This document shows positions 18,883 to 45,322 of a DNA stretch of 64,000 bases, piece after piece. Origin of the DNA: Ostrea edulis (taxonomy: Eukaryota). The DNA is taken from assembly GCF_947568905.1 (NCBI RefSeq), contig NC_079167.1, forward strand, positions 92,318,001 to 92,382,000, in the 5' to 3' direction. The position numbers and the translations under genes are program-made. Each line of letters starts with the position of its first letter. Within the stretch, counting starts at the first letter, position 1. Under the pieces are notes generated by a model. The model was not told where the DNA came from. It did not search any database and saw only the letters and a list, made by a program, of their open reading frames with translations.

Positions 18883-20123
18883 TCAGTGGTATCCCGCTTT
18901 GTGATCTTTGACCATGTTAGCCATTTCCCCCATGGCCTCGTATATCCCCTCGCCTGTTGTTGCGCATGCGGCTTGAATGAACCATTTTCGAGACGTCATT
19001 TTATGTAAATCCATCAAGTCAGCAACCTCTGATGGTTTCATGGCACCTTAGGAAAAGTAAATTTTAAAAAAAACATGAGATTTGCTGAATAGATGAAGAA
19101 TACAATAGTTCAGCATATGACACATTGTACGCCGTGTGTCGTCTACTTTCACTTTCAGTTCAAGGTTTTTGTGATCTAGAGACTAAAAACAGCTATGATT
19201 GAATGTACTGATTTTAAAGTTTTCCGGTATTTTTTCCTTGAATATGCGGTTTTTATTTCCATATTTCAAAACAGTGCAAAGGAAAAACAGCGAAAAATAA
19301 AGTTCCGTGCAATAATGAAAACAAAAGCAGTGTACATATCAACATGACACACCTGTATAAGAGTGGTGTACATACCAGGTAGGTCCTGTTTGTTGGCGAT
19401 AACCACGACTGGTACTCTCCTCATTTCATCATTATCGAGAATTGCAAACAGCTCTTCACGAGACTCGGCAATCCTCTCTCTATCATTAGTGTCAACGACG
19501 TAGATTAGTCCTGATACAGAAGAGAAAATATATTCTTATAGAAAACGAGTGTATTTATATGACATGTTACAAAATAAGAGAACAATATGTCAGTATCGCG
19601 TAAGTAAAGATGAAAATAACATTTCGTATTTCGAATGCTAAATAGAAAACAATATTGTAAGTAGGGACTTTATAATACCTTCGGTATTTTGGAAATAGTA
19701 TCGCCACAAAGGTCTGATTTTATCCTGGCCCCCTATATCCCACACAGTAAATGAAATCCCCTTCACCGGCTCCACCGTTTCTACGTTGAACCCAATGGTT
19801 GGGATAGTATGCACATTTTCATTCAGTTTGATTTTGTATAAAATCGTTGTCTTTCCTGTGAAAAAATAATAAATTGAACACATCAAATATCATGAATGAT
19901 TTTTTAAAATAAATCAAATTAAGATTTTCATTTTTGAAAATATATTTAAGATTGTGAATTAAAATTTCACGAAATCATTTTATAGTATCTCCACTGGTCT
20001 AAGAAGATGGTCTGAAGATTAAGACTCACCAGATGCATCTAAACCCAGCATGAGGATCCTAGCCGGATCGTCTGCGGTAAAGGACTCGAAGATAGAATAC
20101 AATCGCGATAGAAAAAGACCCAT
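18883..20123 (-). CDS. ADP-ribosylation factor (ARF/ARL) family GTPase, copy A (189 aa, subfamily I)
   Basis: Exons 20123-20030, 19855-19679, 19510-19376, 19046-18883 (570 nt). MGLFLS myristoylation motif, [32 protein letters not shown]; ends KDHKAGYH*. Confidence 0.95.
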
Positions 20124-20199
20124 TTTTTTCTCTCTCTGTCAATACCCAAAGTGCACCGATCTGTATTGTGATATTCTATGTAGGAACAAACTCTAGCTC

Positions 20200-20342
20200 T
20201 TTATATACTTGGTAAAAGACAGGTTATTTTTGACCTGTTAAATGCCAATGCTGGTATAAACAGCGTTTTACTTCCAGCGTGTCTACTTATGACGAAATAC
20301 TTAGTTGTGAATGTAAACAATTATGACGCGAGGTGTTCCGAA
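20200..20342 (-). promoter_or_regulatory. Proximal promoter of ARF copy A: TATA box plus conserved TTCCAGCGTG / TGACGAAA / GAGGNNTTCCGAA blocks
   Basis: TATATAAA (minus) ~80 bp upstream of the ATG; the same blocks in the same order occur upstream of copies C, D, E and F. Confidence 0.65.
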
Positions 20343-43009: not shown

Positions 43010-43388
43010 GCTACTGACAAACAAGTTGATGGTAGAGGGGTTTCAACAGTTTCGTTTAAAGTCAGCATTTGGCAAATTCTATGGTCGTTATAACGATCTA
43101 GTTCGCCAATACAACCTATATATCATTGGGTTAAATGCTGTCTAACGTGTTTCATACCGACTGTTAGACCGTTCTTGGCACACTGATTTTGACTACAGAT
43201 AACTCCGTTTACCTGATCAAGATATAGGGCTCACGGCGGGTGTGACCGGTCTACAGGGGATGCTTACTCCTTCTAGGCACCTGATCCTACCTCTGGTATG
43301 TCGATGGGTCCGTGTTTGCCCAACTCTCTACTTTGTATTGCTTATAGGAGTTATGAGATTGATCACTGTTCGTTATCTTCACCTTCCA
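43010..43388 (+). mobile_element. Penelope-like RT 3' fragment/tail
   Basis: Matches 8500-8866; inserted into the repeat duplicated with the ARF unit. Confidence 0.75.
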
Positions 43389-44094
43389 TCCAGTTGTTAC
43401 ATTTTGTTGGAAACATCCATTCTGGTAAAATTCTTTTGGGATTTTATTTCATATTGGAGAAATTTGTGACTTATTTCGAAATATGGTTTACTTTCAAGAG
43501 CCGGACACATTATGATTGATTGATTATGGTTTTAAGAATATTTCAGTCATTTTCCGGAGGTTCATTAATAAAGGCGGCTCGTTTTCATGATTTTCTTTTT
43601 AGGATATATCAATAAACCTCTTTTGGGTAACCATACACTTTTGTTTCGTATTCTGAATGAAAACAACTGTTCCGTGAATGGCAAAACAAATCACCGTCTA
43701 TCTTTTCTTCACTTTTTATTCTTTATGAAAAACAATAACCAATGATCACAAAAACAAGAACAATTTCAATAATAAGTGTTGGAATGACTCCACAAACACG
43801 TTAGTCATGGAAACAGCTATTGTAAAGAACAAGTAATGAGATTGTGTAATCATGATCTAAACAATGTTGTTTCTCATTGATAATGACTGGTTCCCACGAT
43901 AGCTTGTTGTGTTGTATCGTCCAATATTCACACGGATACAGCTTATGTTGTATCAGCCGATGTTCACCCGGCTACACCGCAGTTTGGATATCTGCTGACT
44001 TGGAAGCGCCTCCATGTATGGATGTAGAGGATACAGATATAAGTTAATGAACACTCCCTTGATGACTTATAACAGATACTCCTGGTGAACGGTT

Positions 44095-45322
44095 TCATTT
44101 AAGCCCCTTCTTATACACTTTAACCATAGTTGCTAATTCATTCATGGCTTCATATATGCCTTCTCCTGTTGTTGCGCAAGCGGATTGAATGAACCATTTT
44201 CGTGACGTCAGCTTGTTTAAGCACATGAGGTCTGCCACCTGCGAGGTACTTTGAGCATCTATTGGAAATAGAAAAATTGTTACTATACTTATTTACATTA
44301 AAGGATATATATGGATGGAAACTGAAAAAAAAAATAACCGACAACATATATATTGAAAAGATGATATGTTCGAAAAAAGATACCATGCAATGCACGAAGT
44401 TTGATACTGAATTCATTAAAGAAATTCAAAAATGCTTAAATGGCAATTCTGAATGTTTTCTGGGTACAATTAAATTCTCCAAATCAACGTTAGTCAGTAA
44501 AGCATACGTACTTGGAAGATCTTGTTTGTTAGCGATGACCACCACCGGAACTCCTCTCATTTCATCGTTTTGGAGGATTCCGAACAGTTCTTCACGTGAC
44601 TCCGCTATCCTCTCTCTGTCGTTACTGTCTACTACATATACCAGACCTGAAGAAAATAGACGGAGATAATATACCTTTCTTGTACGTTAATCTAATTACA
44701 TGAATGCAGAATTATTGCAAGGTTTCCCCCTCATAATTATTACATAACTAAATCTAGTATTCCAGTTTGGATTTCAGGTTTTTTTAGTCGTACCTTCAGT
44801 GTTTTGGTAGTAGTGTTTCCATAACGGTCTAATTCTGTCCTGACCCCCGACGTCCCAGACCGTGAAGGACACGCCCTTTACCGGGGATACTGTCTCCACA
44901 TTAAAACCTATGGTAGGTATGGTGCACACATTCTCGTTCAGTTTAATCTTGTACAAAATAGTCGTTTTCCCTGTAAGCAAGAGTTCTTAACGATGAAAAT
45001 TAATTCATAAAGAACACAGTGTGTAAATTCAATTCTATTCTTTTTCCCCAGAAAGATAATGCAAATAAAAACCATATGTATAAATATACATCAAAACAGA
45101 TTAAATGTATAAATATACATCAAAACAGATTAAATGTATAAATATACATCAAAACAGATTAAATGATGTAAAATTCCGATTTTCATACATTTTAAAATAA
45201 GAAAAATTAAAATTACAACGAATCTTACCAGCAGCATCTAAACCAAGCATAACTATTCTTGCTGGTGATCCGGAGGAAAAAGACTCAAAAAGAGTGGTTA
45301 ATCTGGATAGAAATAATCCCAT
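44095..45322 (-). CDS. ARF/ARL family GTPase, copy F (189 aa, subfamily II)
   Basis: Exons 45322-45229, 44970-44794, 44646-44512, 44258-44095 (570 nt); all G-motifs intact. Confidence 0.95.

What the first reader, a model, noticed from the sequence alone, without database searches (positions are those of the whole stretch)
18883..45322. Tandem array of six intact, divergent ARF/ARL GTPases
Seen: six same-strand four-exon genes with identical intron positions and phases, intact G1-G5 motifs and MGxxxS myristoylation sites, and no pseudogenes. Subfamily I (A, C) and subfamily II (B, D, E, F) are ordered A-B-C-D-E-F, consistent with duplication of an ancestral pair followed by triplication of D. 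Established: canonical ARF1-6 are dispersed, extremely conserved housekeeping genes. These copies have a one-residue longer interswitch ([16 protein letters not shown] versus ARF1 NVETVEYKNISFTVW) and xYVVDS/T, features I recall from vertebrate ARL11/ARL14. Inference: a lineage-expanded, inducible membrane-traffic GTPase family with a stress or immune role.
Basis: partly seen in the sequence, partly recalled or inferred. Interest (0 to 1): 0.75.

Follow-up and report, generated by a model that had tools for sequence, protein, structure and literature searches.

The report
Oyster tandem array of Arl19 GTPases
Six intact oyster genes in a row encode Arl19, a named but unstudied membrane-traffic switch protein; they share one promoter element that likely makes them stress-inducible, and close relatives occur in lampreys, lungfish and amphibians although the family was reported lost in vertebrates.

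Summary
In detail: six intact four-exon ARF-family genes lie on the minus strand at 18883-45322, all with GT-AG phase-1 introns at the same places. They are not Arf1/Arf4 (AU p=0.002). They are Arl19, a subfamily named by Vargova et al. 2021 and already multi-copy in rotifers, planarians, urchins and limpet. Other oysters carry both subfamilies; only the D/E/F triplication is lineage-recent. D/E/F are real paralogs: about 10% apart, with copy-specific flanks in 4 of 4 runs from four studies. Selection is purifying (dN/dS 0.11-0.28). First, all six share a bZIP-type element plus a TATA-like box; it aligns between the subfamilies although their synonymous sites are saturated, which points to co-regulated, likely stress-inducible expression. 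Induction itself is not shown. Second, Arl19-like proteins were found in lamprey (heavily multiplied), bowfin, lungfish, frogs and salamanders (branch 100/99), against the published statement that vertebrates lack Arl19. That makes the ARL11/ARL14 likeness a possible real kinship, untested here. Verdict: new members of a known, function-unknown family, with a testable regulatory lead.

The parts
18883..20123 (-). Gene A, Arl19 subfamily I, 189 aa; exons 20123-20030, 19855-19679, 19510-19376, 19046-18883
   Evidence: identical to XP_048758892.1; tree
24295..26827 (-). Gene B, Arl19 subfamily II, 192 aa; exons 26827-26728, 26505-26329, 24863-24729, 24461-24295; exons 2-3 much closer to D/E/F than exons 1 and 4
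   Evidence: identical to XP_048758886.1
29962..31551 (-). Gene C, Arl19 subfamily I, 189 aa; exons 31551-31458, 30846-30670, 30468-30334, 30125-29962
   Evidence: second half of fused model XP_048758893.2
35448..36677 (-). Gene D, Arl19 subfamily II, 189 aa; exons 36677-36584, 36302-36126, 35994-35860, 35611-35448
   Evidence: first half of fused model XP_048758893.2
39667..40939 (-). Gene E, Arl19 subfamily II, 189 aa; exons 40939-40846, 40544-40368, 40222-40088, 39830-39667
   Evidence: identical to XP_048758894.2
44095..45322 (-). Gene F, Arl19 subfamily II, 189 aa; exons 45322-45229, 44970-44794, 44646-44512, 44258-44095
   Evidence: identical to XP_048758888.2
20272..20297 (-). Upstream element TTWCGTCA..GCTRGAA of gene A; TATA-like box 84 nt before the ATG
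26935..26958 (-). Upstream element of gene B; TATA-like box 73 nt before the ATG
31709..31734 (-). Upstream element of gene C; TATA-like box 87 nt before the ATG
36836..36860 (-). Upstream element of gene D; TATA-like box 94 nt before the ATG
41098..41122 (-). Upstream element of gene E; TATA-like box 94 nt before the ATG
45481..45505 (-). Upstream element of gene F; TATA-like box 94 nt before the ATG
34952..45679 (-). Three ~4.3-kb duplication units carrying D, E and F with their promoters and spacers
   Evidence: self-blastn 82-87% over 2.2-3.9 kb; 88-90% over ~1.9 kb of aligned columns

Best explanation
The six genes are this oyster's tandem cluster of Arl19 GTPases, intact and under purifying selection, predicted to work as myristoylated Arf-type GDP/GTP membrane switches and likely switched on together by stress through a shared bZIP-type promoter element. 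Shown: family identity (about 0.93), intact catalytic motifs, purifying selection, and a promoter block kept across both subfamilies. Inferred from Arf biology: GTP loading frees the myristoylated N-terminal helix, the protein docks on membranes and recruits Arf-type coats or lipid enzymes; switch II is almost the same as Arf1's (about 0.8). Inferred: the more basic tails of subfamily II (4 K/R against 2 K plus His in A and C) would favour plasma-membrane or endosomal sites (about 0.35). Inferred: an ATF4/C-EBP/CREB-type factor induces the cluster in cellular stress, and the copies add dose to an on-demand trafficking boost (about 0.45).
For: Curated Arl19 references in hand: P0081 and P0119 match LgiArl19a and LgiArl19b of the Vargova supplement by eye, and P0097 matches CteArl19 minus four residues. 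The window genes, these references and the genome's own Arl4 form one branch, 100/100, next to Arf6 (mixture model, 26 rows), the topology the paper describes. Grouping with Arf1/Arf4/TRIM23 is rejected, p-AU 0.0022. [quoted passage not shown] An exon-2 search of the genome gave 18 matches among 31 candidates scored; the 6 best are this array. dN/dS is 0.11-0.28 in the 7 of 15 pairs that are not saturated. The AlphaFold model (pLDDT 78) matches full-length Arf1-GDP at 1.8 A rmsd with the N-terminal helix present. The upstream 300 nt of A versus D and A versus F align above 200 of 200 shuffles, while bases 301-600, the downstream flank and the introns do not, and synonymous sites are saturated. 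The composite pattern has 35 matches in 895 Mb (reversed control 17); 6 are these promoters, and a TATA-like box follows in 6 of 6 against 1 of the 24 other loci fetched. In Biomphalaria the top niclosamide-induced gene (27-fold; log2FC 4.5-5.1 in a second species) is labelled ARF1 or 'ARF3-like', a label borne by the snail's Arl19.
Against: No expression data for these six genes were seen. Pairwise identity alone barely separates the families (61-68% to Arl19 references, 59-62% to Arf1/4). The bootstraps had not fully settled, and Arl19 is not a resolved clade in the source paper. The element reads TGACG(A/T)AA, one base off the published AARE core TGATGXAAX. The pattern was fitted after seeing these promoters, so its rarity is not a probability. 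The loose 9-mer is not enriched in the window (17 seen, 15 expected), and the own Arf1 gene also has a match 94 nt before its ATG. The snail label is ambiguous: the one supplement row seen maps 'ARF3-like' to another locus, LOC106053066, of unknown family. The tail difference is not strict: some subfamily I proteins of other oysters have 3-5 K/R. Switch I and the interswitch are poorly predicted (pLDDT 50-60).
Confidence: 0.6

Rival explanations
1. Arl19 cluster with cell-type-specific or developmental rather than stress-driven expression; the shared block is a tissue enhancer or core promoter, and copy number drifts by birth and death with gene conversion.
For: Copy number varies widely among animals, from 1 to 8 or more in the curated set. 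B is a mosaic and D/E/F change nearest partner along the unit. Oyster disease supplements gave no row that could be tied to Arl19, though these were weak searches.
Against: A bZIP-type core plus a TATA-like box is kept in 6 of 6 copies across a split older than Ostrea versus Magallana/Crassostrea; unresolved snail induction lead.
Confidence: 0.27
2. Immune-specific family in an arms race, for example decoys or substitutes for Arfs hijacked by pathogens, as the first reader leaned towards.
For: Repeated expansions in oysters, abalone and lamprey. Likeness to ARL11/ARL14, which I recall as immune-cell genes (recalled, no call). Switch II is somewhat more variable (mean consensus 0.82) than switch I and the interswitch (0.90-0.94).
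Against: dN/dS 0.11-0.28. The most variable positions among 27 oyster proteins are mostly in the N-terminal linker and C-tail. No pseudogene remnants in the window. No induction by poly(I:C) or virus could be assigned.
Confidence: 0.1
3. D, E and F are an assembly artefact (uncollapsed haplotypes).
For: 96% protein identity. No listed contig spans the whole stretch, so order is not independently shown.
Against: The units differ by 10-12% plus indels, and coding dS is 0.12-0.15. Listed contigs from other samples differ from the window by 0-5 letters in 295-712 here, and 4 of 4 runs from four studies each hold pieces downstream of D, in the D-E spacer, in the E-F spacer and upstream of F.
Confidence: 0.02

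Closest known systems
Arl19 (Vargova et al. 2021, PMC8358228), e.g. Lottia gigantea Arl19a/b, Capitella Arl19
   Same: One tree branch; 13-residue interswitch, ETVSPVKG in Lottia; KLNE; MGxxxS; basic tail; an intron shared with Arf1; multi-copy state. Lottia's two have near-adjacent accessions and the same scaffold length, so they are probably tandem.
   Different: Six copies in two oyster-wide subfamilies. I saw no bivalve Arl19 among the 26 of 410 supplement places read. The promoter element and the vertebrate members are not mentioned in the text read.
Arf1 / Arf4 (class I/II Arfs)
   Same: 59-62% identity, near-identical switch II, predicted Arf-GDP fold, intron 2 shared with Arf1.
   Different: Tree grouping rejected; interswitch one residue longer; longer N-terminal linker; the conserved Trp of the last helix replaced by Glu; introns 1 and 3 not shared; own Arf1 and Arf4 genes lie on other contigs.
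Arl4
   Same: Falls inside the same branch; basic C-terminus.
   Different: The genome has a separate intronless Arl4-like gene (L013) with a 17-residue interswitch, 43-46% identical.
Vertebrate ARL11 / ARL14
   Same: By eye from the supplement: 13-residue interswitch, YV[VL]DS, VP[VF]xxxANKQ, and in ARL14 a similar last helix.
   Different: Single-exon, vertebrate-only and placed with Arl4 by the paper; not in my trees.
Mammalian CREB3-ARF4 Golgi-stress response
   Same: Works-like analogy only: an Arf paralogue raised by a bZIP factor under stress (as summarised in PMC4599737 section 18).
   Different: Different Arf subfamily; factor and stimulus unknown here.

Membership tests
Arl19 | Groups with curated Arl19 sequences, with Arl4 inside and Arf6 as sister | tested here: met
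   94/93; 100/100; Arf6 sister 84/85; 3 curated references held
Arl19 | Shares an intron position with Arf1 | tested here: met
   intron 2, phase 1 in the Gly after NTE/NTQ, in all six and in own Arf1; the paper's Fig. S11 marks were not visible, so whether it is the same intron they mean is unchecked
Arl19 | N-terminal Gly2 myristoylation motif | tested here: met
   MGxxxS in 6 of 6; motif only, no predictor run
Arl19 | 13-residue interswitch (my diagnostic from the curated set, not the paper's definition) | tested here: met
   6 of 6; 65 of 67 Arl19-like rows, 2 not parsed
Arl19 | Three or more basic residues (K, R, H) at the C-terminus | tested here: met
   6 of 6 by the criterion of bioRxiv 10.1101/2025.10.27.684887; A and C only when His is counted
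Arf1/Arf4 | Clade membership | tested here: not met
   p-AU 0.0022
Arf1/Arf4 | Class I or class II exon-intron pattern | tested here: not met
   1 of 3 introns shared with own Arf1, 0 of 3 with own Arf4
Arl4 | Long interswitch, mostly intronless gene | tested here: not met
   13 versus 17 residues; four exons; separate gene L013
Arl20 | Three Arl20-specific intron positions | not testable with these tools
   Fig. S11 marks not held as text
Arl20 | Sequence type of curated Arl20 (often Arg at the catalytic Gln, long C-terminal extension) | tested here: not met
   by eye against supplement sequences; the six have GGQ and end at 189-192 aa
ARL11/ARL14 | Clade membership with mammalian ARL11/ARL14 | not testable with these tools
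   no bona fide ARL11/14 sequence was returned; the 'ARL14' name on frog P0448 is a database label
ARL11/ARL14 | Single coding exon, vertebrate-restricted | tested here: not met
   four exons, oyster
ATF4/AARE target genes | TGATGXAAX core | tested here: inconclusive
   TGACG(A/T)AA in 6 of 6, one base off; binding untested

The most novel reading that the evidence does not exclude
Arl19 is an animal-wide, stress-inducible 'emergency Arf' driven by a bZIP element and repeatedly amplified in tandem (oysters, abalone, lamprey). It was not lost in vertebrates: it survives unrecognised in lamprey, bowfin, lungfish and amphibians, and ARL11/ARL14 are its diverged offshoots rather than Arl4's. The vertebrate survival alone is well supported here (about 0.85); stress induction (about 0.45) and the ARL11/14 origin (about 0.4) are untested.
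Probability: 0.2. Interest if true: 0.65.

Novelty: new member of a known kind. Interest (0 to 1): 0.42.

Why it matters
I found no functional study of Arl19: a whole-word search gave only the defining paper (two versions) and one preprint (subscription journals are not searched). Databases mislabel it as ARF1, ARF3, ARF6 or 'uncharacterized', so stress-transcriptome hits to 'ARF1' in molluscs may be Arl19. The shared promoter gives a direct test of what turns the family on, in a farmed species. The vertebrate members would correct a published gene-loss claim and give laboratory access through axolotl, newt or frog, and they reopen the origin of ARL11/ARL14. The tandem array alone is ordinary for this family in molluscs.

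Tried and rejected
Expression: the run search listed no RNA holder, which is no evidence either way. Supplements of oyster papers: PMC7064767 gave 3 'ADP-ribosylation factor' rows, 2 seen, neither assignable to Arl19; PMC6182001, PMC13070813 and PMC11033467 gave 0 hits for the terms used. A full-text search for six locus ids found 0 papers. Passages in PMC13619432, PMC10776947 and PMC3967946 were uninformative. A search for the recalled AARE wording 'CRTCA' found 0 papers. Contig depth looked lower over E in one run, but the tool says depth is no copy number, so it was not used; copy-number variation between animals stays open. The 389-aa D+C double-GTPase model was rejected as a real fusion: in the window the junction would need an intron starting AA (read by eye). 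Positive selection: pairwise dN/dS only, no site model. NF-kB, HSE, STAT and AP-1 patterns gave no match in the 400 nt upstream of any gene, and an ISRE-like match in C only. The profile search of 50% representatives was crowded by Arf1 fusions and returned no recognisable ARL11/14; 10 of its 148 new rows parsed with a 13-residue interswitch. Trees used 63 of 82, 26, 26 and 19 rows chosen to fit the time limit; 8 and 6 of 12 inspected vertebrate proteins went into. Earlier scan notes: one unrelated Naegleria note, and none for this genome or these words.
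Full report
OBSERVATION. A six-frame motif scan and exon building recovered six genes on the minus strand between 18883 and 45322, each with four exons and three GT-AG phase-1 introns at equivalent codons; the proteins are 189 aa (B 192 aa) with all GTPase motifs and MGxxxS. Pfam calls the three scanned (A, B, F) Arf at about E 1e-66. No further exon remnants were found in the window. 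An exon-2 search of the whole genome gave 18 matches among 31 candidates scored; the six best are the array and the other 12 are more distant ARF-family genes elsewhere. A, B, E and F equal RefSeq models of Ostrea edulis labelled 'uncharacterized'; D and C are merged in one model.

NOT AN ARTEFACT. The D, E and F units are 88-90% identical over about 1.9 kb of aligned columns and 82-87% over 2.2-3.9 kb with gaps; coding dS is 0.12-0.15. Contigs of four DNA runs from four studies (4 of 24 runs listed) each hold pieces downstream of D, in both spacers and upstream of F, with 0-5 differing letters in 295-712 (32 pieces were shown). One run could be the source sample; all four cannot. No listed piece spans the array, so order rests on the assembly.

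IDENTITY. Vargova et al. 2021 (PMC8358228; seen: abstract, passages, section 10, part 1 of section 12, supplement searches) named Arl19, a holozoan group that contains Arl4 in their trees, lies next to Arf6, and is said to be absent from vertebrates. Their supplement lists Adineta Arl19a-h, Schmidtea a-g, four of the urchin's lettered copies a-e, two each in Ciona, Lottia and Nematostella, and one each in amphioxus, Saccoglossus, Capitella and Helobdella; Lottia's carry the same ETVSPVKG interswitch (26 of 410 places read in sequence). Homologue searches returned proteins matching LgiArl19a, LgiArl19b and CteArl19 by eye. Identity alone is barely informative: 61-68% to these and 59-62% to Arf1/4. 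Trees decide it. The window genes, the references and the genome's own Arl4 form one branch (94/93 with 63 rows; 100/100 under a mixture model with 26 rows), and union with Arf1/Arf4/TRIM23 is rejected (p-AU 0.0022). Bootstraps had not fully settled in either tree. Intron 2 is shared with the own Arf1; introns 1 and 3 are not shared with Arf1, Arf4 or Arf6. Names of the own-genome reference genes are my assignment, by likeness to supplement sequences and recall.

HISTORY. Oyster Arl19s form a branch (94/93) that splits into subfamily I (97/94) and II (100/97). Both hold Magallana and Crassostrea proteins; the Saccostrea proteins returned all fall in II; D/E/F form their own clade (99/94). Runs of neighbouring locus numbers on one sequence in Saccostrea echinata (LOC133190169-172), S. 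cucullata (LOC134249252-255), C. virginica (LOC111119543-545), Biomphalaria, Haliotis and Ruditapes indicate tandem arrays there too (inferred from ids and contig lengths, not read from DNA). B matches D/E/F far better in exons 2-3 (pS 0.13-0.22) than in exon 4 (0.51-0.60); Fisher p is 0.003, 0.016 and 0.097 for E, F and D, and A-C shows no such contrast (p 0.74). Gene conversion or a later duplication would both fit. dN/dS is 0.11-0.28 in 7 of 15 pairs; the other 8 are saturated.

MECHANISM. Shown: intact P-loop, switch I Thr, catalytic Gln and NKQD; a model that overlays full-length Arf1-GDP (TM 0.87, 1.8 A; switch I and interswitch poorly predicted). Inferred from established Arf biology, as summarised in the paper's section 12: GTP binding exposes the myristoylated helix and the protein docks on membranes. 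A preprint (10.1101/2025.10.27.684887; passages only, supplements closed) links basic C-termini to plasma-membrane location and notes them in many Arl19s. Subfamily II tails here have 4 K/R, A and C have 2 K plus His, but some subfamily I proteins of other oysters have 3-5 K/R, so a targeting split is only a hypothesis.

PROMOTER. All six carry TTWCGTCA, then GCTRGAA, then a TATA-like box, on the sense strand 124-184 nt before the ATG. Between subfamilies the upstream 300 nt align above 200 of 200 shuffles for A-D, A-F and C-D and 199 of 200 for C-F. B aligns with D but not with A or C by this score. Further upstream, downstream and intron controls between subfamilies do not stand out. The composite occurs 35 times in 895 Mb (reversed control 17); 6 are these promoters, and a TATA-like box follows in 6 of 6 versus 1 of 24 other loci fetched. 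The pattern was fitted afterwards, so only the alignment test counts as a test. The core is one base off the AARE core TGATGXAAX bound by ATF4 and other bZIP factors (PMC11574132, one passage). The loose 9-mer is not enriched in the window, and the own Arf1 has one match too. Transcription starts were not mapped.

EXPRESSION LEAD. In Biomphalaria glabrata the most induced gene after niclosamide (27-fold) was annotated ARF1 at E 2.6e-52 (PMC4599737; passages and section 18). In B. pfeifferi two matching transcripts rose by log2FC 4.5-5.1 and are called 'ARF3-like' (PMC6936870; section 10 and one supplement row, file cut when stored). The snail's paired Arl19 proteins include one with that label, but the row seen maps the label to a different locus, so the link is unresolved. 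No expression data for the six oyster genes were seen; supplements I could not map or read may hold them.

VERTEBRATES. A profile of 40 Arl19s pulled out lamprey proteins: one cluster of 14 near-identical sequences in Lethenteron reissneri with many neighbouring locus numbers (some may be assembly duplicates), and one in Lampetra. A search with the lamprey protein returned bowfin, lungfish, frog and salamander proteins of 185-191 aa; 11 of 12 inspected parse with the 13-residue interswitch, and most have KLNETV-like and LVK/MVK-like motifs. They join invertebrate Arl19 at 99/96 and 100/99, and their union with Arf1/4 or with Arf6 is rejected (p-AU 0.001; LG+G4). This contradicts the statement that vertebrates lack Arl19; I saw only human and Takifugu among the paper's vertebrates and could not see its full sampling. 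By eye, human ARL11 and ARL14 share the interswitch length and several residues with this group, but no true ARL11/14 was available for a tree.

NOVELTY AND VERDICT. The array is a set of new members of a known family whose multi-copy state is documented. A whole-word search for Arl19 found only the defining paper and one preprint; searches for oyster ARF induction found nothing assignable; subscription reviews were not searchable. The added value lies in the conserved promoter block and the vertebrate members. Interest 0.42.

Noticed in passing
P0363/P0423 (Lethenteron reissneri), P0373 (Lampetra), P0448-P0465 (frogs, salamanders, lungfish, bowfin): Vertebrate proteins that group with Arl19 (100/99), against the published loss in vertebrates; the lamprey copies are strongly multiplied and near-identical.
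   Followed up: partly
G000:C4:8.308-8.329 Mb (L007-L009): A second tandem set: three intronless 212-aa Arf-like ORFs with Arg in place of the catalytic Gln in two and an altered motif in the third, an atypical G5 region and a C-terminal extension; Arl20-like by eye.
   Followed up: partly
G000:C10, about 1751278-1759250 (L023, L031): A divergent 184-aa ARF-family gene sharing all three intron positions and phases with the six genes, but with a 12-residue interswitch, Thr at the catalytic Gln and only 37-38% identity; tree position unreliable.
   Followed up: partly
window 35448-36677 and 29962-31551: RefSeq merges D and C into one 389-aa double-GTPase model; similar fused models exist in M. 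gigas, S. echinata, starfish and for Arf1 pairs in many animals. Probably annotation chimeras of tandem genes.
   Followed up: partly
window about 900-16200, + strand: Left neighbour looks like a multi-exon gene with at least four PAN domains.
   Followed up: no
window 7586-8870, 10330-11080, 24937-25850, 33940-34500, 43010-43390: Reverse-transcriptase-like repeat fragments in the spacers and neighbours, very high copy in the genome.
   Followed up: no
window 3182-4064, 23589-24077, 28030-28330, 29413-29806, 46729-47038, 55383-56646: Minisatellite arrays.
   Followed up: no
window 53111-57774, - strand: Exon-like ORFs of an unidentified right neighbour; 3 pieces scanned had no Pfam match.
   Followed up: no
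126 and 121 nt upstream of the ATG of D, E, F: A CACGTG E-box followed by GAAATTTT lies between the shared element and the TATA box only in D/E/F.
   Followed up: no
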